The position numbers were made by a program, and so were the translations under genes. Below, in pieces: positions 34,490 through 49,002 of a DNA stretch of 64,000 nt. The stretch is from NCBI GenBank assembly GCA_965205265.1, contig CBDBGH010000003.1:1440001-1504000 (forward strand). Direction: 5' to 3'. The DNA is from Alphaproteobacteria bacterium. GTDB lineage: Bacteria; Pseudomonadota; Alphaproteobacteria; Bin95. Every line of letters begins with the position of its first letter. Position 1 is the stretch's first letter. Under the pieces are notes generated by a model, which worked only from the letters and a program-made list of their open reading frames with translations, searched no databases and was not told the origin of the DNA.

Positions 34490-34541
34490 CCGCCCGGCGG
34501 GACTTTGCCCCGCGCCTGTCCTTACCCCCGAGTCTCTGTTC

Positions 34542-34646: not shown

Positions 34647-34720
34647 CGAGGTCCGGGACGCTGCACAGGGTAGTATTGAGACAATTTGTTCGTAAAATTA
34701 AGAATATTTCTCTATACTAC

Positions 34721-34747
34721 TTGCATTATCAGAAAGTGTGCTATGAT
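34721..34747 (+). promoter_or_regulatory. Putative sigma70 promoter with extended -10
   Basis: TTGCAT-N15-TATGAT with TG at the extended -10 position, in an AT-rich patch; mirrored in the second copy. The spacer is short. Confidence 0.55.
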
Positions 34748-35006
34748 GGGTCCGAGGGAAGCGGCGTCCATGGACCGCTTCCCGCCCGCGCCGGTCCGGT
34801 GCGGCACGACCCCGATCCAGCCGACAGGTGAAGTGTGTCCTGTGCCCGCCTCGCGCGCGGGCAATCAGGCGCGCGAACCGCGCCGCCGCGAAACGCCCGC
34901 CCGCCCGCGCACAGGCGCCCGCGCAGGATGACGCGCGAATAAGGGTCGCTCCGGTGCCGGGGCGGTGTGCCGGATGAACATGAGACGAAACCAAGGAGCC
35001 GCACCC

Positions 35007-35918
35007 ATGCCCGCGCTCGACCCGACCCTCTCCCTCTCCTCCCGCCAGGAAGCCTTCTGCCGCCACTACACAGCCTCCGGCAATGCCGCAGACGCCGCAA
35101 GGCGCGCCGGCTATGCCGAACGCTCCGCAAGGCAGACCGGCTCCGCTCTGCTGGAACGCCCCTGGATCGTCGAGCGGGTGCGGCGCATCCGCATGTCGTG
35201 GCGGCGCACCGAGCGGGACGAGGCGCAGATCGTGCTCGCCCGTCTGGAGCAGGCCTGGGATGCGGCGGTCGCCAGCGGGTCCGCCTACATGATGGTCCGG
35301 ATCGTCCGCTTCCAGGCGGAGATTGCGGGGCTGACGCAGCCCGCCAACCGGGCGGCGCTCTGGTCGATGCCGGAGGAGGACGAGTTCGGGGAGATCGAGG
35401 CCGGCGAGGCGCAGGAGGCCGGCACCGTGCCGGGACCCCTCGCCGAAGCCGTGCGCAATGGCCGTGCCCGCGCCGAGCGCGCCCTTGCCCGCCATTGCGG
35501 GAACAGGGAGGCGATGGAGGCAGGGGAAGGCTTCGACAGAGCCGCCCATGCCATGACCGCCGAACGGCTCATGGCGGCCGTCGAGGAGCGCGAGAGCCTG
35601 CCCGTCTGCTTCGACCCGCCGCCGCCTCCGGCAAACGACCTGCCCCTCGCTGACGACCCGCCCGAAGACACCTACGACCCCGAGCGGTTCCCCGGCGAGT
35701 GGGCCGACGGCGACCGCCCGGGCGAGGAGGAGAGGGCCGAGGGCGCGGAGACCGACTGGCTCTACCAGCGCCGCAACGACTATGCCGAGATCCACGACCC
35801 CTGGTCGCCGGAAAACATCGAACGCCGCCAGGCCGACAGCCTCAACCGGCTCGAGAATGGGCCGCCCTTCAACCCGCCCCGCAACCCCGGTTTCTCACCC
35901 GACCATGACATTTCATGA
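35007..35918 (+). CDS. Orphan terminase small subunit-like protein with long acidic/proline-rich tail
   Basis: RBS AAGGAG; LSSRQEAFCRHY..SGNAADAARRAGYAERSARQTGSALL.RP.I is the Terminase_2-type HTH. Confidence 0.8.
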   Translation: MPALDPTLSLSSRQEAFCRHYTASGNAADAARRAGYAERSARQTGSALLERPWIVERVRRIRMSWRRTERDEAQIVLARLEQAWDAAVASGSAYMMVRIVRFQAEIAGLTQPANRAALWSMPEEDEFGEIEAGEAQEAGTVPGPLAEAVRNGRARAERALARHCGNREAMEAGEGFDRAAHAMTAERLMAAVEERESLPVCFDPPPPPANDLPLADDPPEDTYDPERFPGEWADGDRPGEEERAEGAETDWLYQRRNDYAEIHDPWSPENIERRQADSLNRLENGPPFNPPRNPGFSPDHDIS

Positions 35919-35930
35919 CATCCCATGACA
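35904..35930 (+). repeat. Three CATGACA direct repeats with 10-bp period
   Basis: CATGACA at 35904, 35914, 35924. Confidence 0.9.
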
Positions 35931-35983
35931 CGGCGCGAGAGGGGCGCCGTTGCCCCCATTCACCGCCCCGGCTCGCCTCCGGT

Positions 35984-36943
35984 TCAGGCGAAGGCCTCTT
36001 CCCAGCTGCCGCGGGTTGCGGCCTTGGCGTATTCGGTGGCGCGGTTCTCGAAGAAATTGGCGTGCTCGACGCCGTTCAACATTTCGTCCATCCAGGCGAG
36101 CGGGTTCTCCGCAACGCCGAACGCCGCCTCGAGGCCCAGCTGCTCCAGCCGCCGGTCTGCGATGAAGCGGATGTAGGACTTCACCTCCTCCGCCTCCAGG
36201 CCTTCGACGCCGCCCATTTCGAAAGCGAGGTCGATGAAGGCGTCCTCATGCCCGATCACCGTTCGGCAGGCGTCTGCCAGGTCCCGGCGGAGCTCATCGG
36301 TCCACACTTCGGGATATTCGCCGACAAAGGTTCGGAAGAGACGGATCGCATTCTCGGTATGCAGGGTCTCGTCGCGCGCCGACCAGGCCACGATCTGGCC
36401 CATCCCCTTCATTTTGCCGAAGCGCGGGAAGTTGAGCAGGATGGCGAAGCTCGCGAAAAGCTGGACCCCTTCGGTGAAGGCGCCGAACACGGCGAGGGTG
36501 CGCGCGATGTCTTCTTTCGAATCCGAGCCGAACTGCTTCATGTAGTCGTATTTGTCGCGCATCGCCTTGTAGCGCATGAAGGCCGAATACTCGACTTCCG
36601 GCATGCCGACCGTATCCAGCAAATGGCTGTAGGCGGCGATGTGCACCGTCTCGATATTGGAGAACGCCGCCAGCATCATCTGTATCTCGGTCGGCTCGAA
36701 GACGCGGGCGTAATGCTTCATGTAGCAGTTGTTCACCTCGACATCGGCCTGGGTGAAGAAGCGGAAGATCTGGGTGAGCAGGTTCCGTTCGGCCGGGGTG
36801 AGGATGCGCCGCCAGTCGGTCACGTCGTCGGAGAGCGGCACTTCCTCCGGCAGCCAGTGGATGCGCTGCTGTGTAAGCCAGGCATCGTAAGCCCACGGAT
36901 AGCGGAAGGGCTTGTAGGTCGGGCTCGGGTCGAGAAGCGGCAT
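35984..36943 (-). CDS. nrdB: Ribonucleotide-diphosphate reductase subunit beta
   Basis: HWLPEEV, FFTQAD, ETVH..AY, FTEG..LF.SF, RDE.LH, NFFE.RATEY. Confidence 0.96.
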   Translation of the reverse strand: MPLLDPSPTYKPFRYPWAYDAWLTQQRIHWLPEEVPLSDDVTDWRRILTPAERNLLTQIFRFFTQADVEVNNCYMKHYARVFEPTEIQMMLAAFSNIETVHIAAYSHLLDTVGMPEVEYSAFMRYKAMRDKYDYMKQFGSDSKEDIARTLAVFGAFTEGVQLFASFAILLNFPRFGKMKGMGQIVAWSARDETLHTENAIRLFRTFVGEYPEVWTDELRRDLADACRTVIGHEDAFIDLAFEMGGVEGLEAEEVKSYIRFIADRRLEQLGLEAAFGVAENPLAWMDEMLNGVEHANFFENRATEYAKAATRGSWEEAFA

Positions 36944-37037
36944 GGGTGCGGCACCGATGTTTCAGCCGGACAGTGTATAGCCGGGGAGGCAGCCTTGCTA
37001 TAACGGCGTCACCCGAAAGAGGCACTTGCCCGTCCCC

Positions 37038-38669
37038 ATGACCCTCCCGATCCTCCTCCTCGAAGAGGCCCTCGACGCAGCCCGGTCCTATCTGGAAGAG
37101 GCGCGCGGCAGCGTGGCGGCGCGCGTGCAGGCCGGCGGCCGGACCGACCCCGCCGCGCTTGAGCGCGACCAGTTCGCGGCCCACGGTTTCGCCTGGACCG
37201 CGACCTATGTGGCGGGCCTGCGGGAAATGCTCGGCTGGGCGCGGCGGCTGGAAGCGGCGGACAGTCTCACCGGGCTCGACCGTCTTGTACTGCAAGCTGC
37301 CTTCGGGGAATATCTGGCCCAGCTAGCGGGCGGCATCGCCGTCTCGCAGGGGGAAGCGGTCCGGCCCGCGGACCTCGGCCTCGACGACGCGGCATTGCGG
37401 GTTCCCGCCGTCGAGCGCGTCGCAGCCGAGGGCAATTCCAATGCCGTGCGCATGGAAATCGCCGCCCTTCTCGCCGAAGGCCAGAGGCCGTCCGACGGGC
37501 TGGAAGACGAATCGCTCGCTCTCGTGCGCGGCCAGTTACGCCGATTCGCGGACGAACGCATCGTGGGCCCGGCGCATGGATGGCACAGCCGCGACGAGCT
37601 CATCCCGATGCCGGTCGTCGAGGACATGGCGGCAATGGGCGTGTTCGGGCTCACCGTGCCCGAGGAATGGGGCGGGCTCGGGATGGGCAAGGTGGCCATG
37701 TGCGTGGTCACGGAGGAGCTTTCGCGCGGCTATATCGGCGTGGGCTCGCTCGGCACCCGATCGGAGATCGCGGCCGAACTCATCCGGCTCGGCGGCACAG
37801 AGGAGCAGAAGGAACGCTGGCTGCCCGGCATTGCGAGCGGCGCCGTGCTGCCGACCGCCGTGTTCACCGAACCCGATGTCGGCTCGGACCTCGGCGGCGT
37901 GAAGACGCGGGCGGTGCGGAACGGCGGGACTTACCGGGTTTCCGGCGCCAAGACCTGGATCACCCATGCGGCGCGCGCCGACCTGATGACCCTGCTCGCC
38001 CGGACCGATCCCGACAAGCCCGGCTATCGCGGCCTCTCCATGTTCCTTGCGCCGAAAACGCGCGGAAGCGATGACGACCCCTTCCCCGACCCCGGCATCG
38101 ACGGCGGTGAGATTCCCGTGCTCGGCTATCGCGGCATGAAGGAATACGAGATCGGCTTCGATGGCTTCGAGGTGGACGCGGGGGACCTTCTCGGGCGCGA
38201 GGAAGGCCAGGGCTTCAAGCAATTGATGGCGACCTTCGAAAGCGCGCGCATACAGACGGCGGCGCGCTCGGTGGGCGTGGCCGAGCGCGCGATGGAACTG
38301 GCGCTCGACTATGCCGCCGGACGCAGGCAGTTCGGTAAGGCGATCCTGGGCTTCCCGCGCGTTGCGGGCAAGATCGCCTGGATGGCGGTCGAGACCCAGA
38401 TCGCCCGCCAACTCGCCTATTTCGCCGCCCGCGAGAAGGATGGCGGCCGGCGTTGCGATATCGAGGCCGGCATGGCGAAGCTGCTGGCCGCGCGCGCCGC
38501 CTGGGCCAATGCCGACAATGCCGTCCAGGTGCATGGCGGCAATGGATACGCACAGGAATACGAGGTCGGGCGCATCCTTTGCGATGCGCGCATCCTCAAC
38601 ATCTTCGAGGGCGCGGCGGAGATACAGGCCCATGTCATCGCGCGCGGCCTGCTCGAACGCCGGAACTGA
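37038..38669 (+). CDS. mcd: Acyl-CoA dehydrogenase, (2S)-methylsuccinyl-CoA dehydrogenase-like (ethylmalonyl-CoA pathway)
   Basis: N-terminal extension (QFAAHGFAW.ATY), PTAVFTEP..GSDL, VLGYRGMKEYE, TFESARIQTAAR, IFEGAAEIQ. Confidence 0.82.
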   Translation: MTLPILLLEEALDAARSYLEEARGSVAARVQAGGRTDPAALERDQFAAHGFAWTATYVAGLREMLGWARRLEAADSLTGLDRLVLQAAFGEYLAQLAGGIAVSQGEAVRPADLGLDDAALRVPAVERVAAEGNSNAVRMEIAALLAEGQRPSDGLEDESLALVRGQLRRFADERIVGPAHGWHSRDELIPMPVVEDMAAMGVFGLTVPEEWGGLGMGKVAMCVVTEELSRGYIGVGSLGTRSEIAAELIRLGGTEEQKERWLPGIASGAVLPTAVFTEPDVGSDLGGVKTRAVRNGGTYRVSGAKTWITHAARADLMTLLARTDPDKPGYRGLSMFLAPKTRGSDDDPFPDPGIDGGEIPVLGYRGMKEYEIGFDGFEVDAGDLLGREEGQGFKQLMATFESARIQTAARSVGVAERAMELALDYAAGRRQFGKAILGFPRVAGKIAWMAVETQIARQLAYFAAREKDGGRRCDIEAGMAKLLAARAAWANADNAVQVHGGNGYAQEYEVGRILCDARILNIFEGAAEIQAHVIARGLLERRN

Positions 38670-38687
38670 ACGCCCGGAGCATATTGC

Positions 38688-39875
38688 ATGGCACGGATCG
38701 TCATCGTCGGCGCGGGCATAGGCGGCCTCGCCGCATCCCTCGCCCTGGCGAAGCGCGGCGTCGAGGCGCTGGTGCTGGAGCAGGCGCCGCGCATCGAGGC
38801 GGTGGGCGCCGGCATCCAGCTCAGCCCGAACGCCACGCGCATCCTGAACTGGCTCGGCCTGGAAGACGATATGGCCGGGTGGGGTGTCGAGCCGGTCGGG
38901 CTCGCGATCCGCAGCCATGAGGGCGAGATGCTGGTCGAGGCGCCGCTCGGCCGGGACGCCCGCGAGACCTTCGGCTACCCCTACTACCACGCGCATCGCG
39001 CGGACCTGCTGGACGGGCTGCTGAGCCGCCAGCCGCCGGGACGGGTGCGGCTGGGCGCGCAGGTCGTCTCGATGGAGGACGGACGGCTGACGCTTGCAGA
39101 CGGCGAAACCGTTGAAGCCGATATCGTCGTCGGCGCGGACGGCATCCACAGCCCGGTGCGCCGGCATCTCTTCGGCACAGGCAATGCGCGTCAGTCGGGC
39201 TCGGTGGCATGGCGCGCGCTGGTCCCGGCCGAGCGGCTCGCCGATCTCGGCATTCCGCGCGAGTCCGGCGTCTGGTGGGGGCCGGACGCCTGCATGGTGC
39301 GCTACTGGGTTGCTGCCGGTCGGCTGATGAACTGGATCGCCATCGCGCGCACCGACCGGGAGACGCCGGAATCCTGGTCGCGCCTCGGCCGCGTAGAGGA
39401 TGCCGCAGAGGCCATGGCACCTTTCCCGCCCACGGTCACGCGCATGGTCGAACGCACCGGGACCGTGCATGAATGGGCGCTGTTCGACCGGGAGGGCCTG
39501 CCGGCCTGGACGTGCGGGCGGGTAACGCTGCTGGGAGACGCCGCCCACGCCATGATGCCCTATCACGCGCAGGGCGCCGCCATGAGCCTGGAGGATGCCT
39601 GGGTGTTGGCCGGCTGCCTCGAAGAAGACATGGGAGAAGGCGGGCTTGCGCGTTATGAGGCGTTGCGGCGGGACCGCGCCAACCGGGTGCAGGCCTGGTC
39701 GCGCGCGGTCGAACGCCACTGCCTGCTGGCCGACCCTGCCGAAGTAGCGGTTCGCAACGCCAAGCTGGCGAAGGACCGCGCGGACTATCGCGGCGGCTTC
39801 CCGCCCGGACAGATCTGGCTCTACGGCTACGACGCCGAAGCCGCACTGTCGGAGGAATCCGCCATTGCCGGTTGA
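38688..39875 (+). CDS. FAD-dependent monooxygenase (salicylate hydroxylase/NicC-like, group A)
   Basis: GAGIGG, GAGIQ, ADGIHS, LLGDAAH.M.P..AQGA. Confidence 0.9.
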   Translation: MARIVIVGAGIGGLAASLALAKRGVEALVLEQAPRIEAVGAGIQLSPNATRILNWLGLEDDMAGWGVEPVGLAIRSHEGEMLVEAPLGRDARETFGYPYYHAHRADLLDGLLSRQPPGRVRLGAQVVSMEDGRLTLADGETVEADIVVGADGIHSPVRRHLFGTGNARQSGSVAWRALVPAERLADLGIPRESGVWWGPDACMVRYWVAAGRLMNWIAIARTDRETPESWSRLGRVEDAAEAMAPFPPTVTRMVERTGTVHEWALFDREGLPAWTCGRVTLLGDAAHAMMPYHAQGAAMSLEDAWVLAGCLEEDMGEGGLARYEALRRDRANRVQAWSRAVERHCLLADPAEVAVRNAKLAKDRADYRGGFPPGQIWLYGYDAEAALSEESAIAG

Positions 39876-39986
39876 TGCAAGCGGGACGAAGCCTGCCGGT
39901 TGGGTCGGCGGCGCAAATCGGGTGGAAACGCTCGAACGTCTCCGGCATTGTGCAAGATCGGCAGCGTGTCGAAAGGTCTGGGCCGC

Positions 39987-40172
39987 ATGTCCTTCCTGAT
40001 CCCGATTTTCCTCGCCGCAGTGGCGCTTGTCCTCTTCACCGGGATTTTCGGGATGATGCGGGGCGGCAGCTTCAACCGGAAATACGGCAACAAGCTGATG
40101 CAGCTTCGCGTCGGCCTGCAATTCCTCGCCATCATCCTGATCGTCGCGGCGGCGCTGCTGGCCGGCTCCTGA
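39987..40172 (+). CDS. Twin transmembrane helix small protein (HIG1-like)
   Basis: GG.FN.KYGNKLMQLRV.LQ motif; directly upstream of the adenosyltransferase. Confidence 0.85.
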   Translation: MSFLIPIFLAAVALVLFTGIFGMMRGGSFNRKYGNKLMQLRVGLQFLAIILIVAAALLAGS

Positions 40173-40735
40173 TGGTCCGGCTCACGAAGATCTACACGAA
40201 AGGCGGCGACAGGGGGGAGACCTCGCTCGGCAACGGCGCGCGCGTCGCCAAGGACAGCATTCGCGTCGAGGCGTTCGGCGCGGTGGACGAGACCAATGCC
40301 TGCATCGGTCTCGCCCGCCTGCACGCATCGGGCGAGATGGACGACATGCTAGCGCGCATCCAGAATGACCTGTTCGACCTGGGCGCCGACCTCTGCACGC
40401 CGGAAGGCGGCGAACGGCGCACCGGGGCCTTGCGCGTCGTTCCGGAGCAGGTCCAGCGGCTGGAGGCCGAAATCGACGCGATGAACGCGGAGCTCGCGCC
40501 GCTCAACTCCTTCGTGCTGCCGGGCGGGTCGGCGGCGGCGGCGGCGCTGCATCTCGCGCGCACCACGGCCCGGCGGGCGGAGCGCGCCGTGACGGCGCTG
40601 GCCCGCGAGGAGCCCGTGGGCGAAGCCGCGCGGCACTACATGAACCGCCTCTCGGACCATCTCTTCGTCGCCGCCCGTCTGGCCAACGACAAGGGCGCCG
40701 CCGATATCCTCTGGGTGCCCGGCGCGAACCGGTGA
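40172..40735 (+). CDS. Cob(I)alamin adenosyltransferase, PduO type
   Basis: KIYTKGGD.GET, G.VDE.N, IQNDLFDLGADL, ARRAER, NRLSD. Confidence 0.95.
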   Translation: MVRLTKIYTKGGDRGETSLGNGARVAKDSIRVEAFGAVDETNACIGLARLHASGEMDDMLARIQNDLFDLGADLCTPEGGERRTGALRVVPEQVQRLEAEIDAMNAELAPLNSFVLPGGSAAAAALHLARTTARRAERAVTALAREEPVGEAARHYMNRLSDHLFVAARLANDKGAADILWVPGANR

Positions 40736-40755
40736 GGCCGTCGCCGGACGGTCGG

Positions 40756-41292
40756 TCAGTTCCCCTGCTTCCGGACCATCACGCGCCTTAGCGCCTTCCT
40801 CGCATAGTCCCAGTCGGGGCGGATGGCGAGCGAGCGCTCGTAGTCGGCGAGCGCCTCATCCAGCTGCCCCATTTCGGCCTTGAGGTCGCCGCGCACCTTG
40901 TAGGCGCGCCAGAGCTCCACCTGGCCGAGCGCGATGCTCTCGTCGAAATCGGCGAGCGCGCTTTCCAGTTCCCCCATGCGCCACTTGGCGACGCCGCGAT
41001 TGTGGAAGGCCTCGCCGTATTCCGGGCGCAATCCGATCGCCTCGTCGAAATCGGCGACCGCCTCCTTGTAGGCCCCGGTCTCGATCTGCGCCGTGCCGCG
41101 CTTGAAGAGCCCCCTTGCGCGGTCCTCCGGCGCTTCGAACAGGCCGCCTTCCAGCGCGCGCGTGCAATGCAGCACATTCGCCGAGGGCGCGCCGCCGCCC
41201 GCCATGCAGAGCATCTTGTCCCAGGAGTCCGCGGCCAGCGCCGGCCCCGCGGACAAGAGCAGCAAGAGCGCGAGTCCGGTCCTAGCGGCCAT
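40756..41292 (-). CDS. Secreted tetratricopeptide repeat protein
   Basis: Signal peptide; three TPR units (A.ADFDEAI.L.P...EAF.NRG). Confidence 0.85.
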   Translation of the reverse strand: MAARTGLALLLLLSAGPALAADSWDKMLCMAGGGAPSANVLHCTRALEGGLFEAPEDRARGLFKRGTAQIETGAYKEAVADFDEAIGLRPEYGEAFHNRGVAKWRMGELESALADFDESIALGQVELWRAYKVRGDLKAEMGQLDEALADYERSLAIRPDWDYARKALRRVMVRKQGN

Positions 41293-42427
41293 GGCGCATA
41301 TGCCTTGCGATGATTGTGCGCTGGATCTGGCTGGTGCCGCCGCCGATGGTCGCCTGCATGCCTTCGCGGAAATAGCGCTCCATGTCGGCCTCCGGCGTGG
41401 TGCCGATGCCGCCCATGATCTGCACGCCCTGGCGAGAGACCTCCTGCAGGGTCTCGGATGCGAACAGCTTCGCCATCGCCGCTTCCTTCGGGCACGGACC
41501 TCCACCATTCGCCGCCGCAGCGGCGCGGTAGGTCAGAAGCCGCGCTGCATCGACCCTGGTCTGCATGTCGGCCAGCATATGCCGAATGACCTGGAAATCG
41601 AAGATCGGTTGGCCGAATTGCTCGCGCGCGCCGGCGTAGCCGCAGGCATCGTCCACGGCCTGCTGCGCGCAGCCGACATAGCCGGCCGCGATGGATATGC
41701 GCTCCAGCTCCAGATGTTCGGTCATGATATGCCAGCCTTGGCCTTCCCCGCCGAGCAGGGCATGGCCGGGCAGTCGGACATCGTCGAAGAAGATCGTGTT
41801 GGAGCCTGTGGCCCGGCGGGCGAGCGCCTCGACCTTGTGGACGGTCACACCCGGCGCATCGTTCGGGATCAGCAACACCGAGAGGCCGTCATGCCGGGCG
41901 GAGCCCGCCTCCGTGCGCACCAGCGCGCAGAGCACCGCGCCCTTCGCACCGCCGCCCGAGTTCCAGAGCTTCTGCCCGTTCACTACCCATTCGTTGCCGT
42001 CCAGCCGGGCGCGGGTGCGGGCATTGGCGGCGTCGGAACCCGCCTGCGGCTCCGAGAGGGAGATGACGAAGCGCATCTCGCCGGCCAGGAACGGCTCGAT
42101 ATAGCGCGCCACCTGCTCCGGCGTGCCGTGGTGGACGATATTCTGGGCGGTGAACATCGGCACCATCAGCGCCGTGGCGAAATCCGGGCCGTAGCGCGCC
42201 AGTGCTTCGCACATCAGCGCGTAGGAGAAGATGTCGCCGCCCTGCCCGCCCTGCTCTTCCGGCACCAGCAGGCCGATCCAGCCCTGCGAGACGATCTTCG
42301 CGTAACCCTCATAAGGATATTCGCGGTTGCGGTCCTTCTCGCGGACATAGTCGCGGCCGACCTCTTCCTCCATGAAGCGGAAGACGGTCTCGCGCCACAT
42401 TTCCTGTTCGGGGGTCAGGAAATCCAT
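41282..42427 (-). CDS. Acyl-CoA dehydrogenase family protein
   Basis: SLSEPQAGSD, NGQKLW, R.QFGQPI..FQ, IGGGTSQIQR. Confidence 0.93.
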   Translation of the reverse strand: MDFLTPEQEMWRETVFRFMEEEVGRDYVREKDRNREYPYEGYAKIVSQGWIGLLVPEEQGGQGGDIFSYALMCEALARYGPDFATALMVPMFTAQNIVHHGTPEQVARYIEPFLAGEMRFVISLSEPQAGSDAANARTRARLDGNEWVVNGQKLWNSGGGAKGAVLCALVRTEAGSARHDGLSVLLIPNDAPGVTVHKVEALARRATGSNTIFFDDVRLPGHALLGGEGQGWHIMTEHLELERISIAAGYVGCAQQAVDDACGYAGAREQFGQPIFDFQVIRHMLADMQTRVDAARLLTYRAAAAANGGGPCPKEAAMAKLFASETLQEVSRQGVQIMGGIGTTPEADMERYFREGMQATIGGGTSQIQRTIIARHMRHGR

Positions 42428-42449
42428 CGGCGGGAGCTCCGGTCAAACC

Positions 42450-43601
42450 CTAATTGACGACGAGTTCGGTGGAAGCGTGGGTCATCGGCTCGTTGCCGGT
42501 TTCCGTCACGACGGTCGTGGTGCCGGTGGTCGCGGCGAGACCGGCCTGGCTGTCGAAAATGATGATGTGGATGAAGAACACCATGCCGGGCACAGCGAGT
42601 GTCGGATTGCCGCGATAGAACATCGGGCTGTCCATCCACACCGGCGCGAAGGTGGCGCCCAGCGAATAGCCGCAGGCGTTCATGCGGTGCCCGGCGAGGC
42701 CGTGCGCGTCCAGCACGCGGGCATGGGCGTCGAACACCTCGCCCACCGGCCGGCCGGGCTTCAGCGCCTCCCGGCAGGCGGCCAGCGCCTCGACCGCGGC
42801 ATTGTGGAGGAAACGCTGGCGCTCCGGCGGCGGGCCGATGCGGATCGTGCGCATCAGGCACGCATGGTAGTGCCGCCAGGTGCCGGCGAACTCCAGCATC
42901 AGTTGATCGTCGGCATCCAGGTGCCGCCTGCCGCTGTAGTAGCGGCACATGAGCGCGCCGGGGCCGGAGCCGATGACCGTCTCGTTCGCCGGCTCGTCGC
43001 CGCCGGCCCGCCAGACCGCGCCCTGCATCGCCGCCAGGATGTCTCCCTCGAACGCGCCCGGCCGCGCGAGCCGCACGGCTTCGTCCCAGGCGCGGTCGGC
43101 AAGCTCCCCCGCCTTGCGCACATAGCCGAGCTCCGCCGGGCTCTTGACCATGCGCAGCCGGTCCACCAGCCCGGAAGCGTCCCCCAGCTCGACAAAGCCC
43201 TCCAGCGCATCGCGGAGCCGGAAGCCGAGGGCCGCCGGAAGCCCGTAGGCGAGCCACTCCACGCCAAGCCGCCCGCCGGCGACGCCGAACTCCGCCAGCA
43301 TCGCCTTCAGGTCCGTCTCGGGCCGGGCGTCGGCCGCGTCCTCCCAGATGCGTATGTCTTCGAGCACCGAGGTGAACTCGGCCTGGCGAAGGTCCGGCGC
43401 GCGGGTCAGCAGCGCCGTCCGCCCATCGGCGCCGAGCCAGAGGCACTGGAAGAAGCAGAAGCCGAACGTGTCGTAGCCGGTCAGGTAGAACATGCTCTCC
43501 TGCTTGAAGATCAGCAGGCCGTCGAACCCGGCTGCCGCCGCCGCCTCGGCCGCGGCGCGCTGCCTGGCCGCGAATTCTTCCTCGCTGAAATGGATGTGCA
43601 T
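42450..43601 (-). CDS. M24 (Xaa-Pro peptidase/creatinase fold) hydrolase
   Basis: Creatinase_N (F..EE..AR, YLTGY), R.VKSPAE, pita-bread domain with altered metal ligands. Confidence 0.85.
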   Translation of the reverse strand: MHIHFSEEEFAARQRAAAEAAAAAGFDGLLIFKQESMFYLTGYDTFGFCFFQCLWLGADGRTALLTRAPDLRQAEFTSVLEDIRIWEDAADARPETDLKAMLAEFGVAGGRLGVEWLAYGLPAALGFRLRDALEGFVELGDASGLVDRLRMVKSPAELGYVRKAGELADRAWDEAVRLARPGAFEGDILAAMQGAVWRAGGDEPANETVIGSGPGALMCRYYSGRRHLDADDQLMLEFAGTWRHYHACLMRTIRIGPPPERQRFLHNAAVEALAACREALKPGRPVGEVFDAHARVLDAHGLAGHRMNACGYSLGATFAPVWMDSPMFYRGNPTLAVPGMVFFIHIIIFDSQAGLAATTGTTTVVTETGNEPMTHASTELVVN

Positions 43602-43694
43602 GCCGCGTCCCTCGCTTTCCTGTCCGCCCTCGCGCATCATGGCATGAAGAGCTGCCCCGATGACAAGGCGGGCCGACAGGGGAGAGCAGGGACG

Positions 43695-45413
43695 ATGGCG
43701 AGCGAACGGGCCGAAACGGTCGCAACCCGGGATATGGCCGTGGCCGGACACCAGCTTGCGGCGAGCGCGGCGTTCTCCGTGCTGGAGGCCGGCGGCAACG
43801 CCATCGACGCGGGCGTAGCCGGCGGGCTGGCGCTCGGCATTCTCGAGAGCGACCTCGTCAGTGTCGCGGGCGTTGCGCCGATCATGGTCTATAGCGCGGA
43901 AACGCAGCAGGTCGTTACCATCTCGGGTCTCGGCTGGTGGCCGAAAGCGGCGGATATCGAGCATTTCCGGCGCAAATACGGCGGCGCGATCCCGAACGGC
44001 GTGCTGAGGACGGTCGTGCCGGCTGCTCCGGACGCCTGGATCACAGCGCTGGGGCTCTGGGGCCGGATGAGCTTCGGCGAAGTGGCGAGCGCGGCGATCC
44101 GCTACGCCCGCGACGGCTTTCCTATGTATCCGCTGATGGAGCGCATCATCTCGGAGCATGAGGCCGAGTTCCGCGCCGCGCCGGACACCGCCGCGATCTT
44201 CCTGCCCGGCGGGCGGCCGCCCCGGACCGGCGAGCTTTTCTTCCAGAAGGAAGGGGCGGCCGCGCTGCAATACATGGCCGACGAGGAAGCCGCCGCGGCG
44301 CGGCGGGGCGGGCGCAAGGCCGGGCTCGCGGCCGCCCGGGACGCCTTCTACAAGGGCGACATCGCCCGGCGCATCGCCGAGTGGCAGGCTGCCGAAGGCG
44401 GCTGGATGACGCGCGAGGACCTCGCGTCCTTCCGCGTCGGCATAGAGGAGCCGGTGCGCGGCCGGTTCGGCAATGCGGATGTCTATGCCTGCGGGCCCTG
44501 GTGCCAGGGGCCCGCGCTGATCGAGGTGCTGAACATCCTCGGCGGCTACGACCTCCGCGAACTCGGCCACAACAGCGCCGATGCCGTGCATGTCTCGGTC
44601 GAGGCGGTGAAGCTCGCCATGGCGGACCGGGATGCGTGGCTCGGAGACCCGCGCTTCGTGGACGTGCCGACCGACACGCTCGCGTCGGAGGCTTACGCCG
44701 CGCTTCGCCGGGCGGAGATCGACATGGGCCGCGCCATGCCCGAAATGCCGCTTCCGGGCGATGCCGGCTCGCGCTTCAGGGTCCCCGCAGCGCCGGTGCC
44801 GACGCGGGAGCCCGAAGTCGCGCCGCTGGACACCTCCTATGTCTGCGTCGTGGACGAGGAAGGCAATGTGTTCTCGGCCACGCCCTCCGACGGTTCCTAT
44901 GGCGGCACGGTGGCGCCGGGCGTCGGCCTCGCGGTCTCTTCGCGCGGCTGCCAGTCCTGGACCGACCCGGCGCATGCCTCGGCCCTCGCTCCCGGCAAGC
45001 GCCCGCGCCTGACGCCGAACCCGGCGCTCGCCGTGCTGGACGGCGGAACGCGCTTCGTGCCTTTCGGCACGCCCGGCGGCGATGTCCAGACGCAGGCGAT
45101 GTCGCAATGCCTGATGAACCTCACGGTCCACGGCATGTCCGCCCAGGAAGCCGTCTCCGCGCCCCGCTATGCCAGCTACAGCTTCCCGTCTTCCTTCGAG
45201 CCGCACGCCTATTATCCGGGGTTGCTGAAGCTGGAAGGCGCCATCGCGGACGAGGCCGGCGACGAACTCGCGCGGCGGGGCCACGAGATCGAACGGTGGC
45301 CGGAGCGCATCTGGCTTGCGGGTTCGGTCTGCATGATCGACGCCGACAGCGAGCGCGGCGTGATGACCGGCGGCGCCGACCCCCGCCGCATGGCCTGCGC
45401 CGTCGGCGCGTGA
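43695..45413 (+). CDS. Gamma-glutamyltransferase family protein
   Basis: GGNAIDA, A..YARDGF, FYKGDIA, DTSY.CVVD (Thr nucleophile), PGKRP, GTPGG, ADPRR. Confidence 0.93.
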   Translation: MASERAETVATRDMAVAGHQLAASAAFSVLEAGGNAIDAGVAGGLALGILESDLVSVAGVAPIMVYSAETQQVVTISGLGWWPKAADIEHFRRKYGGAIPNGVLRTVVPAAPDAWITALGLWGRMSFGEVASAAIRYARDGFPMYPLMERIISEHEAEFRAAPDTAAIFLPGGRPPRTGELFFQKEGAAALQYMADEEAAAARRGGRKAGLAAARDAFYKGDIARRIAEWQAAEGGWMTREDLASFRVGIEEPVRGRFGNADVYACGPWCQGPALIEVLNILGGYDLRELGHNSADAVHVSVEAVKLAMADRDAWLGDPRFVDVPTDTLASEAYAALRRAEIDMGRAMPEMPLPGDAGSRFRVPAAPVPTREPEVAPLDTSYVCVVDEEGNVFSATPSDGSYGGTVAPGVGLAVSSRGCQSWTDPAHASALAPGKRPRLTPNPALAVLDGGTRFVPFGTPGGDVQTQAMSQCLMNLTVHGMSAQEAVSAPRYASYSFPSSFEPHAYYPGLLKLEGAIADEAGDELARRGHEIERWPERIWLAGSVCMIDADSERGVMTGGADPRRMACAVGA

Positions 45414-45465
45414 CCGGCGCGAACGGACACCGGGCCCCACCAATCCTGAACCGGCGAGCGACATC

Positions 45466-46521
45466 ATGGCCTTAGCAACGCGGCAAGGCGCCAACGCGCC
45501 GCGCATCAATCTCTACAGCGACACACAGACCCTGCCGACGCCGGAAATGCGCCAGGCGATGGCCGAAGCGCCGGTGGGCGACGAACAATCCTTCGCCGAC
45601 CCGAGCGTCAATGCCCTTTGCGAACGGGTGGCGGCGCTGCTCGACAAGGAAGCGGCCGTGTTCCTTCCTTCGGGCACGATGTGCAACGAAATTTCCGTCC
45701 GGGTCCATTGCCGGCCCGGCGACGAGGTGATCGCCGAAGCGTCCTGCCACATACTGAACTTCGAGGGCGGCGGGCCGGCGGCGCTTTCCGGCGTGCAGAT
45801 CGCACCGATAGCGGGAGAGCGCGGCATCTACACGGCGGCGCAGGCCGAAGCCGCAATCCGTCCGGAGCACCGCTATGCGCCCCGGTCCGCGCTGCTGGAG
45901 GTCGAGAACACGGCCAATATGGGCGGCGGCTCCGTCTGGCCGCTCGAGGCCGTGCAGGCAGTGACGGATGTCGCCCGCGCGCACGGCCTTGCGACCCATC
46001 TGGACGGGGCGCGGCTGCCGAATGCGGTCGTGGCCTCCGGCACCGCCGCCGCCGACTACGCCGCCTGCTTCGACAGCGCATGGATCGACCTCAGCAAGGG
46101 GCTCGGCTGCCCCGTGGGTGCGGTGCTTGCCGGCTCGACCGCCTTCATCGACGAGGTCTGGCGCTGGAAGCAGCGCATGGGCGGCGCCATGCGGCAGGCC
46201 GGAATCGTCGCTGCCGCCGGCCTTCATGCGCTCGACCGGCATTGGGACCGGCTGGCCGAGGACCACGCCAATGCCGCCCTGCTGGCCGATGCGCTCGCGC
46301 GGATAGACGGGATCTCGGTCGAGCCCTGCGAGACCAACATCCTGTTCTTCGACGTGGGCGGCACCGGGCGGACCGCCGCCGACATTGCCGAGCGTGCAGG
46401 CGCGGCGGGCCTGCGCATCGGCGCGATGGGTCCGACACGGATGCGCGCCGTGACTCATCTGGATGTCAGCCGCACGGATTGCGAGGAAGCCGCCCGCATC
46501 CTCGCCGAGGCGGCGGCATGA
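45466..46521 (+). CDS. ltaE: Low-specificity L-threonine aldolase family (PLP)
   Basis: SDT.T.PT..M, VGD, PSGTMCN, HLDGAR, LSKGLG.PVG. Confidence 0.9.
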   Translation: MALATRQGANAPRINLYSDTQTLPTPEMRQAMAEAPVGDEQSFADPSVNALCERVAALLDKEAAVFLPSGTMCNEISVRVHCRPGDEVIAEASCHILNFEGGGPAALSGVQIAPIAGERGIYTAAQAEAAIRPEHRYAPRSALLEVENTANMGGGSVWPLEAVQAVTDVARAHGLATHLDGARLPNAVVASGTAAADYAACFDSAWIDLSKGLGCPVGAVLAGSTAFIDEVWRWKQRMGGAMRQAGIVAAAGLHALDRHWDRLAEDHANAALLADALARIDGISVEPCETNILFFDVGGTGRTAADIAERAGAAGLRIGAMGPTRMRAVTHLDVSRTDCEEAARILAEAAA

Positions 46522-47342
46522 GCTTCGATCCGGACGCCTTCAAGGCGTTCGAGCGCGCGGGCTGGAACCGGCAGGCCGCCGGCTATCGGGCCGTTTCCTG
46601 GGACTCGACGCGCCTCGGCCTCGGGCCTGTGCTCGACGCCGCCGGCGTCAGGGCCGGCATGGATGTATTGGACGTGGCGACGGGCCCCGGATACGGCGCG
46701 GCGCTGGCCGCCGGGCGCGGCGCGCGGGCGACCGGCGTGGATTTTGCCGCGGCCATGGTGGAAGAGGCGCAGCGCAACTTCCCCGAGGCCGGGTTCCGCG
46801 AGGGCGACGCCGAGGCCCTGCCCTTCGGGGACGGGAGCTTCGACGCCGTCACCTGCTCCTTCGGCATGCTGCATTTCGCCAGGCCGGAGCGCGCGGTCGC
46901 GGAGGCGTTCCGGGTATTGCGGCCGGGCGGGCGCTACGCGTTCTCCGCTTGGTGTACGGCGGACAGGGTGGCGCATTTCGGCATGTTCCGCCGCGCCGTC
47001 TCGGCCCACGGGGATCCTCATGCCGGCGGCATCCCCGAGGGGCCGGAGATGTTCCGCTTCGCGGATCCGGGGGAATGCGCCCGCGTCCTGGAAACGGCAG
47101 GCTTCCGGAAGACGAAGGTGGAGGAAATCGTCATTCGCCGCCGTGTTTCTCCGGAGGCGCTGGTCGAGGGGCTGCGGCACGCTACGGTGCGCTCCCGTGC
47201 GCTGCTCGACGCACAGACGCCCGAGGCCCGCGCCGCCATAGAAGCCTCCGTGCTGGCGGAAGCCCGCGCCATGGCCGGCCCCGACGGCATACTCGACCTC
47301 TCCCTTCCCGCCGTTCTCGCCTCGGGAACGAGGGCGGGCTAG
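46518..47342 (+). CDS. Class I SAM-dependent methyltransferase
   Basis: VLDVATGPG, GDAEALPF.D.SFD, RVLRPGG. Confidence 0.92.
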   Translation: MSFDPDAFKAFERAGWNRQAAGYRAVSWDSTRLGLGPVLDAAGVRAGMDVLDVATGPGYGAALAAGRGARATGVDFAAAMVEEAQRNFPEAGFREGDAEALPFGDGSFDAVTCSFGMLHFARPERAVAEAFRVLRPGGRYAFSAWCTADRVAHFGMFRRAVSAHGDPHAGGIPEGPEMFRFADPGECARVLETAGFRKTKVEEIVIRRRVSPEALVEGLRHATVRSRALLDAQTPEARAAIEASVLAEARAMAGPDGILDLSLPAVLASGTRAG

Positions 47343-47359
47343 GATGACGAGCCTGTAGA

Positions 47360-47551
47360 GTGCGCAAGGTACGGGAGGCAATACGCCTGATCGAACGAGA
47401 CGGTTGGCGGTTGGTTCGGACCCGAGGCAGCCACCGCCAGTACCGGCACCCTGTCAAGCCGGGTACCGTCACGATTGCCGGAAAGCCCAGCGACGACCTG
47501 CCGCCGGGTACATGGGCCAGTATCTTGAAGCAATCGGGCACGAAGGAGTGA
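47360..47551 (+). CDS. hicA: HicA family toxin
   Basis: KVRE.I.LIE.DGW...RTRGSHRQYRHP.KPG.VTI. Confidence 0.92.
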   Translation: MRKVREAIRLIERDGWRLVRTRGSHRQYRHPVKPGTVTIAGKPSDDLPPGTWASILKQSGTKE

Positions 47552-47559
47552 GAACCGGG

Positions 47560-47778
47560 ATGCGGTACACCATCGTCATCGAGAAGGCGCCGGCCAACTA
47601 TGCCGCCTTTGTCCCCGATTTGCCGGGCTGCGTTGCGACCGCACCCACGAGGCAAGAAGCGATAGTGGAAATACGCCAGGCGATTGCGTTCCATATACAG
47701 AGCCTGCGGGAACATGGGGAGCCGGTGCCCGAACCCCGCTGTACCGCGACAGTCGTTGATGTCGCGGCTGTCGCCTGA
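47560..47778 (+). CDS. hicB: HicB family antitoxin (short form)
   Basis: Y.IVIEK...NY.AFVPDLPGC.A...T..EA...I..AI..H...L.E.GEPVP. Confidence 0.92.
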   Translation: MRYTIVIEKAPANYAAFVPDLPGCVATAPTRQEAIVEIRQAIAFHIQSLREHGEPVPEPRCTATVVDVAAVA

Positions 47779-47820
47779 CCGCTCCAGACCCGCCCAGAGG
47801 ACATACATCCCGAGGAAGCC

Positions 47821-48249
47821 GTGGCCGGTTCGATACCCTATATCCGCACCGTCTCCGCCGTCGTCGTCATGCTGCTTCTGCCCGCTACGGCATTGCAGGC
47901 GGAAACGAAGTCCTGCCCGCCCGGTTTCGAGCGCTACGCAGAGTACCGGATGTTTTTCGGGCGCAGCAAGCCGGGGGTCGGGACGGTGTCCGACGGCGAA
48001 TGGAGGGACTTCCTCGCCGTCGAGGTCACGCCGCGCTTCCCGGACGGCCTGACCGTCGTCGATGCCGGCGGGCAGTGGCGCGACAGCAAGGGCGCCATCG
48101 GCCGCGAGGGAGCCAAACTGCTGATCGTGCTCGCTGAGCCTGGCCCCGACGCTGTGCGGCGCACGGAGGAGATTGCCGAAGCCTACAAGCGTGCCTTCGA
48201 CCAGCAATCCGTGCTGCGCACCGTCGAGACGGTTTGCGCCGCGTTTTAG
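47821..48249 (+). CDS. DUF3574 family protein
   Basis: FFGR......VSD.EW..FL..EVTPRFPDGLTV.DA.GQW, F.QQSVLR. Confidence 0.85.
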   Translation: MAGSIPYIRTVSAVVVMLLLPATALQAETKSCPPGFERYAEYRMFFGRSKPGVGTVSDGEWRDFLAVEVTPRFPDGLTVVDAGGQWRDSKGAIGREGAKLLIVLAEPGPDAVRRTEEIAEAYKRAFDQQSVLRTVETVCAAF

Positions 48250-48347
48250 AGGGCGGTTCGCTTCGGTCGGGCTGACGGTCGTCCGGGGAACGCCGTCCGT
48301 GTAGGGCTCCCGGCGGGGGCAGTGCAACCGAAGCCCTCGCGCCGCCG

Positions 48348-48416
48348 TGTCATGGAATGTCATGTTTGTCATGCGGGGCCGGCAGGACCTCGTGCGATGT
48401 GTCATGAGATGTCATG
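48348..48416 (-). repeat. Five CATGACA repeats (TGTCATG on the + strand)
   Basis: TGTCATG at 48348, 48358, 48367, 48400, 48410. Confidence 0.9.
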
Positions 48417-48788
48417 ATTTGCATGTGCGCGGCGCATATGCTGTGACCTGTTCGGGCATGGGGGTCGGATATTCTCTCCGGTTCCGGTAACTTCTTATCT
48501 TCGACATGGGGCCCTTCTCCCGACCGGTCTTCGTTCGGTTCTTCCCGCCGCCCGGCTGTCCGGAGCGGCGGGACCCTGATTCGCGCGTAATGTGCGCGGA
48601 CGCCTGTGCGCGCGGGGGCGTACGTTTCGCGGCGGCGCGAATCGCGCGCCTGATTGCCCGCGCCTGCCCGCGCGTGCGAGCCAGCGGCGGGACGCACTTC
48701 GCCCGTTGGCTGAATCAGGTTTTTTTCGCGCCGGCGCGAACGGCAAAACGAAGCGGACCCGCGGATGCCGCTTCCTTCCTCCTATCTC

Positions 48789-48816
48789 ATACTAGCACAA
48801 GAATTGAATTTGTCAA
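48789..48816 (-). promoter_or_regulatory. Putative sigma70 promoter
   Basis: Minus strand TTGACA-N16-TAGTAT with extended -10 TG, AT-rich upstream tract. Confidence 0.7.
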
Positions 48817-49002
48817 CGAATATGAACGAAATATTTCTGTATATTCATGAACAAAAATTCTTTCGATCCTGAGACAGCCTTCCAGAGCGCATTTCGGGGC
48901 AAACCCCAAAAAACGTCGCCCCGGACCGCAATCCGGGGCGATAATGTTTTCCTTTGGCTTCTCCCGATCCGCGAGACCGGGATTCCACTGCAGGGCGAGC
49001 GC

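What the first reader, a model, noticed from the sequence alone, without database searches (positions are those of the whole stretch)
34683..48860. Two-copy dispersed element: promoter, structured leader, cargo ORF (orphan TerS) and phased CATGACA array
Seen: 34683-35960 (+) and 48310-48860 (-) share, in the same order, five parts. (i) An AT-rich tract (TTTGTTC...AATATTTC). (ii) A sigma70-like promoter with conserved TGTGCTA. (iii) A ~250-nt GC-rich leader, including GCGCGGGCAATCAGGCGCGCGA(AC/TT)CGCGCCGCCGCGAAACG at 39/41 identity (34855-34895 vs 48623-48663). (iv) CCCATGCCCG at the start codon. (v) A 3' end of CATGACA repeats followed by CGGC...GCGAG...GTTGC...CCCC. One copy carries a terminase small subunit-like gene, the other almost nothing. 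There is no integrase, transposase, TerL, portal or capsid gene in the window. Inference: an undescribed family of selfish or domesticated elements with full-length and deleted forms. It might direct helper-phage or GTA packaging to its own repeats (pac-like), or act as a portable expression cassette. The two copies converge on a ~12.3-kb block near dif.
Basis: partly seen in the sequence, partly recalled or inferred. Interest (0 to 1): 0.88.

Follow-up and report, generated by a model that had tools for sequence, protein, structure and literature searches.

The report
High-copy promoter–leader–heptad cassette family
The two look-alike stretches belong to a family of about 70 small cassettes scattered through this bacterial chromosome, a few of which carry a gene derived from a phage DNA-packaging protein, and how they spread is unknown.

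Summary
The two copies belong to about 70 copies in this genome. Twelve related genomes of the same genus hold 112-319 phased heptad pairs each.

Each cassette has four parts:
- an AT-rich 5' end with a sigma-70-like promoter;
- a ~250-nt GC-rich leader with an invariant core;
- an optional ORF;
- CATGACA heptads spaced 10 bp apart at the 3' end.

Seven copies carry a 300-311-aa protein that keeps only the DNA-binding HTH half of phage small terminase. These paralogues are under purifying selection (pN/pS 0.00-0.24). Eight copies carry an unrelated 195-206-aa acidic protein. Most, like copy B, carry no ORF.

Orthologous sites are filled in some species and empty in others. No transposase, integrase or large terminase lies in the cassettes. 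The genome gave no match to three TerL families or to the HK97 capsid family.

Best reading: an undescribed selfish cassette family whose TerS-derived protein binds the heptad end. The enzyme that cuts and joins the DNA is unknown. Resident phage or GTA packaging is not supported. Hijacking of an incoming phage remains possible.

The parts
34686..34720 (+). Copy A 5' end: TTGTTC followed by an AT-rich tract.
   Evidence: Similarity among paralogues starts at or within about 8 nt of TTGTTC; upstream flanks are unrelated in most copies. TTGTTC is present in 40 of 70 copies, with GTTC variants in others.
34721..34747 (+). Copy A promoter-like site: TTGCAT, 15-nt spacer, TG-n-TATGAT.
   Evidence: Read. 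Family-wide, 40 of 70 copies match at least 9 of 12 sigma-70 positions and 48 of 70 have the extended -10 TG; spacers are mostly 15-16 nt. The tool's 16-18-nt rule does not call it in copy A.
34753..35006 (+). Copy A leader. 5' hairpin at 34756-34764 / 34775-34783; invariant core at 34855-34895; second conserved block at 34931-34947; AAGGAG at 34993-34998.
   Evidence: Alignments of 70 and 22 copies. No 3-nt periodicity. Modest covariation: 0.163 against 0.144 +/- 0.006, reached in 1 of 500 shuffles. Fold z-score -2.1. No Rfam match.
35007..35918 (+). TerS-derived HTH protein gene, 303 aa. The stop is the TGA of the second heptad.
   Evidence: Pfam Terminase_2, residues 11-87. PHROG small terminase families. 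PDB 4zc3, 2cmp and 3zqp over residues 10-59. 365 homologues. pN/pS 0.00-0.24 among 7 paralogues.
35904..35930 (+). Copy A 3' end: three CATGACA heptads spaced 10 bp apart.
   Evidence: Similarity among paralogues stops after the last heptad.
48849..48860 (-). Copy B 5' end (TTGTTC at 48854-48849).
   Evidence: Homology with G007 on the upstream side stops at 48877.
48789..48816 (-). Copy B promoter-like site: TTGACA, 16-nt spacer, TAGTAT, with TG.
   Evidence: The tool scores it 10 of 12.
48460..48782 (-). Copy B leader; core at 48663-48623.
   Evidence: Fold z-score -0.95.
48412..48459 (-). Copy B 15-codon frame, better read as a block of CATG-core motifs; it ends in the TGA of the first heptad.
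   Evidence: 53 of 85 arrays are preceded by such an intact frame, but variability shows no codon periodicity (0.86 / 0.83 / 0.88).
48348..48416 (-). Copy B 3' end: two heptads (48410-48416, 48400-48406), a GC spacer, then three heptads (48367-48373, 48358-48364, 48348-48354).
   Evidence: The same two-block layout occurs in many short copies.

Best explanation
Copies A and B belong to a genus-wide, high-copy family of small modular cassettes that behave as selfish, amplifying DNA.

Shown:
- Each cassette is one unit that begins at its own promoter. It continues through a transcribed leader of about 250 nt with an invariant core. It may carry an ORF, and it ends in CATGACA heptads phased at one helical turn.
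- Full-length forms encode either a TerS-derived DNA-binding protein or an unrelated acidic protein of about 198 aa. Both are conserved.
- Most copies, including copy B, are ORF-less derivatives that keep both ends.
- Sites are gained or lost between species. Copies exchange sequence by gene conversion.

Inferred:
- The TerS-derived HTH protein binds the phased heptads, as small terminases bind pac repeats. It would act in trans as the factor that recognises the ends of all copies, the ORF-less ones included.
- The enzyme that cuts and joins DNA is not encoded in the cassette. It is either a host enzyme or an unrecognised one.
- Transcription from the internal promoter and the leader RNA are needed in cis, because nearly every copy keeps them.
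For: Copy number:
- 72 5' modules and 81-85 heptad arrays. There are 713 CATGACA sites against 277 expected.
- Arrays lie downstream of 5' modules on the same strand.
- Phased heptad pairs: 103 in this genome, 112-319 in 12 further genus genomes, 23 in G008, 0-1 in the other 3. Genomes of other genera have 0-1 (24 genomes). The reversed control gives 0 in all 41 genomes.

Protein:
- There are exactly 7 Terminase_2 hits in the genome, all in cassettes.
- pN/pS is 0.00-0.24 over 21 pairs.
- 365 homologues, most of them full length.
- ORF ends encode ...HDIS or ...HDKT, read from the heptads, across genomes and for both cargo types.

Gene-array pairing:
- It is kept in 52-60% identical homologues, with CATGACA or CCTGACA heptads.
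- Homologues at 34% identity have other 10-bp repeats, and their recognition helix differs too.

Co-occurrence:
- Of 13 genus genomes with at least 100 pairs, 12 have the TerS-like gene. Of the 4 with at most 23 pairs, none has it.

Gain and loss:
- Site A is filled in G000 and G005 and empty in G014. Site B is filled in G000 and G014 and empty in G005 and G012.

Context:
- 25 of 68 copies lie between convergent genes, against 17% of all intergenic regions (binomial P = 7e-5; crude gene caller).
Against: - No DNA breakage or joining enzyme is present in any copy.
- The AF2 model of the protein is all-helical, with mean pLDDT 61.5 and no catalytic fold.
- The C-terminal 204 aa occur only in this architecture: 36 representative clusters, none a scorable fusion to another domain.
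- No terminal inverted repeats or target duplications were seen.
- No clean empty-versus-filled junction was obtained.
- No head-to-tail or circle-like junction exists in the genome.
- The identical coding sequences of copy A and C3:1738629 sit at a site that G014, G005 and G007 also fill. This points to gene conversion rather than recent transposition.
- Binding of the protein to the heptads is untested.
- A 9-copy TerS-like family in another family-level lineage (G033) has no arrays.
- No copies lie in the 4.63-5.46 Mb tail of C3 or on C1 and C2, where about 15 were expected. That fits poorly with free transposition, unless that DNA is foreign or newly acquired.
Confidence: 0.5

Rival explanations
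1. Packaging hijack or decoy. The TerS-derived protein recruits the large terminase of an incoming or induced phage to the heptad arrays, which would be pac-like. This would either spread adjacent host DNA and the cassettes by transduction, or sabotage phage packaging, as phage satellites do with their own TerS.
For: - HTH homology to small terminases.
- Phased direct repeats lie next to the gene, as at pac or cos sites.
- A related viral contig has terS-TerL-portal in a row.
- In 9 of 16 distant homologue loci, a GAAC-N7-GAAC motif lies between promoter and start codon, against a background of 0.021 per kb. It equals the Caulobacter SOS box GTTCN7GTTC (PMC9578287, Table 1, passage seen). That would time expression with prophage induction.
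Against: - Only profile positions 2-73 of 141 are matched. Bona fide TerS proteins match 1-128 to 1-135.
- There is no TerL of three families and no HK97 capsid in this genome.
- 8 of 12 TerS-bearing genus genomes lack all three TerL families.
- tblastn found no close homologue in 50,697 phage records. IMG/VR gave only 28-36% HTH matches.
- The SOS-like box is present in 1 of 70 cassettes of this genome.
- This reading does not explain the dispersal of ORF-less copies or the conserved promoter and leader.
Confidence: 0.2
2. Host-domesticated regulatory units. The cassettes are about 70 genes for a structured RNA, or for a small regulon. The heptad arrays, bound by the HTH protein, would serve as roadblock terminators or nucleoid sites. 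Copy number would be kept by host-level selection.
For: - A strong promoter-like site is kept in most copies.
- The leader core is invariant across copies that are 65-75% identical overall.
- G-U-preserving changes and modest covariation favour pairing in the sense-strand RNA.
- No intrinsic terminator lies in the cassette.
- The ORFs are under purifying selection.
Against: - Sites are filled or empty between close species.
- Copies are enriched in convergent, terminator-type intergenic regions.
- There are many truncated, nested and solo pieces; 18 of 84 array clusters are solo.
- Three genus genomes have essentially none: 0-1 phased heptad pairs and no TerS-like gene, though two of the three give weak leader matches.
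- Fold z-scores are weak, -2.1 and -0.95.
- No Rfam family matches.
Confidence: 0.15
3. A described IS, MITE or REP family, or a prophage remnant, mobilised by a known transposase.
For: - The size range and the mix of full-length and short forms resemble IS/MITE pairs.
- GTTC at the 5' junction recalls the IS91 target sequence (recalled from memory, not tested).
Against: - There are no TIRs and no TSDs.
- Y1_Tnp gave 0 hits. Y2_Tnp gave one 48-aa remnant with a stop.
- No integrase or transposase domain is in the cargo proteins.
- Literature searches found nothing.
- ISfinder was not available.
Confidence: 0.05
4. A simple decayed two-copy duplication.
For: None beyond the two copies in the window.
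Against: There are about 70 copies in this genome and hundreds of arrays in relatives.
Confidence: 0

Closest known systems
Phage small terminase (TerS, Pfam Terminase_2; SF6/SPP1 G1P type) with its pac site
   Same: - N-terminal HTH DNA-binding domain.
- A long helix follows it.
- Repeated DNA motifs lie beside the gene.
   Different: - Only profile positions 2-73 of 141 are matched.
- The C-terminal 200 aa are lineage-specific, acidic and partly disordered.
- No TerL lies beside the gene or anywhere in the genome.
- There are 7 paralogues per genome.
- About 60 arrays have no such gene.
Phage satellites that carry their own TerS and pac (SaPI/PICI type; properties recalled, papers seen only as search listings)
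   Same: A TerS-like gene with its own cognate site, separate from any phage.
   Different: - The cassette is 0.45-1.4 kb rather than several kb.
- There is no integrase, repressor, replication or capsid-remodelling gene.
- There are tens to hundreds of copies per genome.
- No helper is identified.
MITE or Correia-type dispersed intergenic repeats with internal promoters (properties recalled)
   Same: - Short, high-copy and intergenic.
- Promoter-bearing.
- Present or absent between relatives.
- Longer relatives carry an ORF.
   Different: - There are no terminal inverted repeats or target duplications.
- The ends are asymmetric: an AT-rich promoter end and a heptad array.
- The ORF is not a transposase.
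- The whole 250-nt leader is conserved, not only the ends.
IS110-family elements with a 5' non-coding bridge RNA before the recombinase gene (recalled)
   Same: The order is promoter, then a structured non-coding leader, then the ORF. The ends are asymmetric, without TIRs.
   Different: - There is no DEDD or serine recombinase domain.
- The leader core is invariant rather than programmable.
- There is no Rfam or Pfam match.
Arm-type or accessory-site arrays bound by small winged-helix factors (lambda Xis, P2 Cox) and iteron or centromere arrays (recalled)
   Same: Head-to-tail direct repeats phased by one helical turn lie at an element end, next to a small HTH protein gene.
   Different: No recombinase, Rep or Par partner is present. 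Binding is untested.

Membership tests
Phage small terminase (TerS) | N-terminal HTH DNA-binding domain of the Terminase_2 type. | tested here: met
   Pfam E = 3.7e-13 over residues 11-87. phrog_51 E = 1e-13. PDB 4zc3 and 2cmp, E about 2e-4.
Phage small terminase (TerS) | Central oligomerisation and C-terminal part of the family profile. | tested here: not met
   All 7 copies match only profile positions 2-72 or 2-73 of 141. Viral and prophage TerS proteins match 1-128 to 1-135.
Phage small terminase (TerS) | A partner large terminase, adjacent or at least in the genome. | tested here: not met
   PF03354, PF04466 and PF17289 each gave 0 hits in the genome, and the control genomes gave hits. 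The neighbouring genes are a DSBA-like gene and the small chain of ribonucleotide reductase.
Gene transfer agent or prophage | A cluster with portal, HK97 capsid and TerL. | tested here: not met
   Portal: one sub-threshold fragment on C2. HK97 capsid: 0 hits. TerL: 0 hits.
MITE / IS | Terminal inverted repeats. | tested here: not met
   The 5' end is TTGTTC plus an AT-rich tract, and the 3' end is direct heptads. Only a weak TGT...ACA resemblance was seen by eye.
MITE / IS | Target-site duplication. | tested here: inconclusive
   None is seen in the flanks. No clean empty site could be aligned to the base.
MITE / IS | An autonomous partner that encodes a transposase. | tested here: not met
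   The cargo proteins have no transposase domain.
IS200/IS605, REP-RAYT, IS91 (HUH elements) | A Y1 or Y2 HUH transposase in the genome. | tested here: not met
   PF01797 gave 0 hits. PF04986 gave one 48-aa remnant with a stop.
Phage satellite (PICI/SaPI-like) | Integrase, regulatory and replication modules, several kb in size, and a helper phage. | tested here: not met
   Units are 0.45-1.4 kb with at most one ORF. The helper could not be tested.
Known RNA family (Rfam 15) | A covariance-model match at or near the gathering score. | tested here: not met
   The only match in the window is a tRNA. The best leader matches have E = 2.5-4.3, far below the gathering scores.
LexA (SOS) regulon member, alphaproteobacterial box GTTCN7GTTC | A perfect box between promoter and start codon. 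| tested here: not met
   1 of 70 cassettes in this genome has one, but 9 of 16 loci of 49-60% identical homologues do. The box sequence comes from PMC9578287, Table 1.
Known anti-phage defence systems (PADLOC 2.0) | A protein match. | tested here: not met
   0 families for both cargo proteins.

The most novel reading that the evidence does not exclude
A new class of bacterial mobile element. A terminase-derived DNA-binding protein, a cis-acting transcribed leader RNA and helically phased heptads at one end would replace the usual transposase and inverted repeats. The protein would mobilise dozens of ORF-less copies in trans.

A second version of the same parts: they form a chromosome-wide network of pac-like sites that turns any incoming pac phage into a transducer of host DNA.
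Probability: 0.2. Interest if true: 0.9.

Novelty: new variant of a known kind. Interest (0 to 1): 0.7.

Why it matters
If the TerS-derived protein and the heptad arrays are a working pair, this is a case of a phage packaging-recognition module becoming a self-amplifying chromosomal element. It occupies tens to hundreds of sites per genome in a whole genus of uncultured Alphaproteobacteria, and each site carries a strong promoter.

The case would give testable access to three questions:
- how elements without a transposase spread;
- what a conserved leader of about 250 nt does in cis;
- whether dispersed pac-like sites shape transduction or phage resistance.

Practically, the family breaks short-read assemblies of these genomes. 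It also causes genes to be annotated as 'terminase small subunit' where no phage is present.

Tried and rejected
Leads that gave nothing or were rejected:
- Coding leader: rejected. There is no 3-nt periodicity, and both strands are open in most copies, as expected at 68% GC.
- Mini-peptide: rejected. 53 of 85 frames are intact but show no codon periodicity. The conserved letters are CATG cores.
- Rfam at gathering score and at E-value threshold: nothing.
- PADLOC and NCBIfam: nothing for either cargo protein.
- Protein Atlas on residues 100-303: best score 0.86, unnamed viral clusters, below the level to trust.
- Foldseek against PDB with the second cargo model: no match at E <= 1e-3. No fold search was run on the TerS-like model, whose pLDDT is 61.5.
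- The two cargo proteins are not alike (BLASTP E = 0.36).
- tblastn against phage records: no match.
- Portable promoter for downstream genes: 31 of 68 co-oriented, so no support.
- Replichore orientation bias: by hand count on the list, 15 plus-strand and 16 minus-strand copies lie in 0-1.5 Mb, so none.
- HUH partners: none.
- Head-to-tail or circle junctions: no array lies within 300 bp upstream of any 5' module.
- Exact insertion boundaries from relatives: sites A, B and C3:1738629 gave filled and empty states, but the intergenic DNA is too diverged or rearranged for base-level junctions.
- A GC hairpin after the last heptad: only a small excess of stability (-15.3 against -14.1 kcal/mol, P = 5e-4) under a looser array definition (182 clusters).
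- Expression: no RNA holder was listed.
- Reads: the four runs laid were short contigs that break inside the repeat. No joint across an empty site was seen.
- Small-share runs were not used to name a habitat.
- ISfinder, web BLAST and paper supplements were not available.

Full report
**1. The observation**

- The 5' modules align at 77% mean column identity.
- The 41-nt core is 39 of 41 identical, at the stated coordinates.
- Both have CCCATGCCCG at a start codon.
- Both end in CATGACA units spaced 10 bp apart.
- Copy A's ORF (35007-35918) matches Pfam Terminase_2 over residues 11-87 only.
- Copy B holds just a 15-codon frame.

**2. It is a large family, not a pair**

The window is G000:C3:1440001-1504000, in a 5.70-Mb, 68% GC assembly.
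- A sensitive blastn with copy A found 77 matches, 72 of which hold the 5' module. Seventy were aligned. One of these is an assembly duplicate, because the first 27 kb of C3 recur at 4,632,568.
- CATGACA occurs 713 times on C3, against 277 expected. There are 81 clusters of two or more, nearly all spaced 10 bp apart.
- The clusters lie downstream of 5' modules on the same strand. Of 84 clusters, 18 have no 5' module within 1.7 kb.
- Size classes are as follows.
  - 38 units are under 620 bp.
  - 7 units of about 1.25 kb carry the TerS-like ORF.
  - 4 units are deletion forms that keep its first codons: C3:2603198, 3934508, 2173478 and 1121678.
  - 8 units carry an intact, unrelated ORF of 195-206 aa, and 3 carry it truncated.
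  - Some units are lengthened by nested repeats or IS elements.

**3. Anatomy**

- Similarity among paralogues begins at, or within about 8 nt of, TTGTTC. It ends right after the last heptad.
- I saw no inverted terminal repeats and no target duplications.
- A promoter-like site follows the AT-rich end. Of 70 copies, 40 match at least 9 of 12 sigma-70 positions, 20 match 11, and 48 have the extended -10 TG. Spacers are mostly 15-16 nt. The scanning tool calls it in copy B at 10 of 12. It does not call it in copy A, whose spacer is 15 nt.
- No intrinsic terminator lies inside copy A.
- The leader is non-coding.
- The leader's core, and a second block about 70 nt on, are invariant in copies that are otherwise 65-75% alike.
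- Evidence for RNA structure is modest.
  - Fold z-scores are -2.1 and -0.95.
  - The RNAalifold covariation term is -1.06, with 3 of 28 pairs compensated.
  - The covariation score is 0.163 against 0.144 +/- 0.006, reached by 1 of 500 shuffles.
  - Many one-sided changes keep G-U pairs. This favours pairing in the sense-strand RNA, most clearly in the hairpin at the predicted 5' end.
- Rfam has no match.
- In short copies, the 45 nt before the first heptad form an open 15-codon frame in 53 of 85 arrays. Variability shows no codon periodicity, and the conserved letters are CATG cores at about -44, -23 and -10.

**4. The proteins**

*TerS-like protein*
- It has 365 homologues at E <= 1e-3 among the candidates scored. 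Most are 270-345 aa, and there are often several per contig.
- Twenty-one aligned sequences share many invariant residues over the first 200 aa. They end in ...HDIS or ...HDKT, which is the reading of the heptads.
- Only the HTH matches known small terminases.
- All 7 copies in this genome match profile positions 2-73 of 141.
- A viral contig's TerS matches positions 1-128 and is followed by a Terminase_3 TerL and a portal gene.
- The AF2 model is helical, with disordered acidic stretches (pLDDT 61.5).
- The C-terminal 204 aa occur only in this architecture: 36 representative clusters among 1.84 billion proteins.
- The seven paralogues show pN/pS of 0.00-0.24. Copy A and C3:1738629 are identical over 265 codons.

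*Second cargo protein*
- It has no Pfam family and 147 homologues.
- Its model is a helical hairpin plus two beta-hairpin-helix units (pLDDT 75.6).
- It has no PDB fold match.
- In other genomes it also ends in the heptads.

**5. Distribution**

- Leader DNA is found in 15 of 16 other genomes of the genus, though two of these matches are weak.
- Phased heptad pairs number 103 here, 112-319 in 12 further genus genomes, 23 in G008, 1 in G001, and 0 in G003 and G013.
- They number 0-1 in 24 genomes of other genera. The reversed control gives 0 everywhere.
- Terminase_2 hits number 2-12 in 11 of the 16 other genus genomes. There are none in G001, G003, G008, G013 and G014. G014 is fragmented, and a TerS-like 3' part is visible there.
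- Record titles of homologue loci are uncultured 'Alphaproteobacteria bacterium' and 'Rhodospirillaceae bacterium' MAGs.

**6. Gain and loss**

- Site A (DSBA-like gene to ribonucleotide reductase small chain) is filled in G000 and G005. In G014 it is an 89-bp spacer.
- Site B is filled in G000 and G014. In G005 and G012 about 10 bp separate the two convergent stop codons.
- The site of C3:1738629 is filled in G000, G014, G005 and G007. The G014 copy carries a different protein variant, so gene conversion is at work.
- Copies are enriched between convergent genes: 25 of 68 against 17% of intergenic regions (P = 7e-5; crude gene caller).
- None lies in the C3 tail or on C1 and C2, where about 15 were expected.

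**7. Wider relatives**

- Homologues at 52-60% identity keep heptad arrays (CATGACA or CCTGACA) at the ORF end.
- Two homologues at 34% identity have other 10-bp repeats. Their neighbouring genes are GFA and PAS genes, not TerL.
- These relatives lack the long leader. Instead, 9 of 16 have GAAC-N7-GAAC just before the ribosome-binding site, against a background of 0.021 per kb.
- That motif is the Caulobacter SOS box listed in PMC9578287, Table 1 (passage seen). In this genome 1 of 70 cassettes has it.
- The recognition helix is the same in the CATGACA and CCTGACA lineages. It differs where the repeats differ, or where there are none (few lineages).
- G033, from another family, has 9 TerS-like copies without arrays.

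**8. What it is not**

- Resident packaging is unsupported. TerL_ATPase, Terminase_3, Terminase_6C and HK97 capsid gave no hit here, while the control genomes did.
- Across the genus, TerL_ATPase is found in 0 of 17 genomes, Terminase_3 in 0 of 17 and Terminase_6C in 5 of 17. So 8 of the 12 TerS-bearing genomes lack all three.
- No HUH transposase partner exists.
- There is no defence-system match.
- Five literature searches found no description: (listings and abstracts). From the listing, one passage was read (PMC4222105) and was irrelevant.

**9. Verdict**

This is an undescribed, genus-wide family of promoter-bearing cassettes. A terminase-derived DNA-binding gene is conserved together with phased heptads. 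I read it as selfish amplifying DNA in which the protein recognises the heptad end.

Three steps are inferred, not shown: binding of the protein to the heptads, the enzyme that moves the DNA, and the role of the leader.

Noticed in passing
window 34541-34661: A different repeat family lies between the DSBA-like gene and copy A. It has many copies at 77-83% identity in G010, G016 and G014.
   Followed up: partly
G000:C3:1-27098 and 4632568-4659093; C3 tail 4.63-5.46 Mb: The first 27 kb of C3 recur at 4.63 Mb. The 830-kb tail has lower GC (67.2% against 68.4%), its own GC-skew rise, many copies of a 4-kb repeat and no cassettes. It may be a separate replicon or a mis-join.
   Followed up: partly
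G000:C3:2837500-2839900 (L153) and 3851300-3856400: A 1.94-kb IS encoding a 551-aa DDE_Tnp_1 transposase has inserted twice at heptad arrays, with direct duplications of 157 and 94 bp. Long variable duplications recall IS1634 (recalled from memory). An IS21-like pair is nested in the second site; this was judged from ORF sizes only.
   Followed up: partly
G000:C3, e.g. near 42826, 1039736, 4008645, 5413818: Another short repeat, containing TTGACAACAGG, abuts heptad arrays in several places. This suggests that arrays are insertion hot spots for other elements.
   Followed up: no
L117:488-1081 (-) = G000:C3:2615087-2615680, and 7 paralogues: The second cassette cargo is a 195-206-aa acidic protein with an internal duplication. 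It has no Pfam, NCBIfam, PADLOC or PDB-fold match, and 147 homologues in the same kind of genomes.
   Followed up: yes
G000:C3:165469-166256: A composite of two partial cassettes in tandem: a 5' module with an array, followed by a leader without a promoter and the 3' end of the TerS ORF. Contigs from three runs show the matching 'goes back 270' joint.
   Followed up: partly
window 48916-48941: A bidirectional terminator-like hairpin with T runs lies upstream of copy B, in DNA that G007 shares without the cassette.
   Followed up: no
G033 (L154-L157): A genome of another family holds 9 TerS-like paralogues (279-314 aa) with a short promoter region and no heptad arrays. One has GAAC-N7-GAAC upstream.
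   Followed up: partly
window 31302-31388: A tRNA gene, the only Rfam match in the window.
   Followed up: no
5' flanks of 6 of 12 TerS-type or related copies, e.g. C3:4474481, 1923750, 1846923: A shared motif of about 35 nt containing GAATCCGGCGGCCGG lies just upstream of TTGTTC. Two other copies share a different upstream repeat. The 5' boundary may therefore be mosaic.
   Followed up: no
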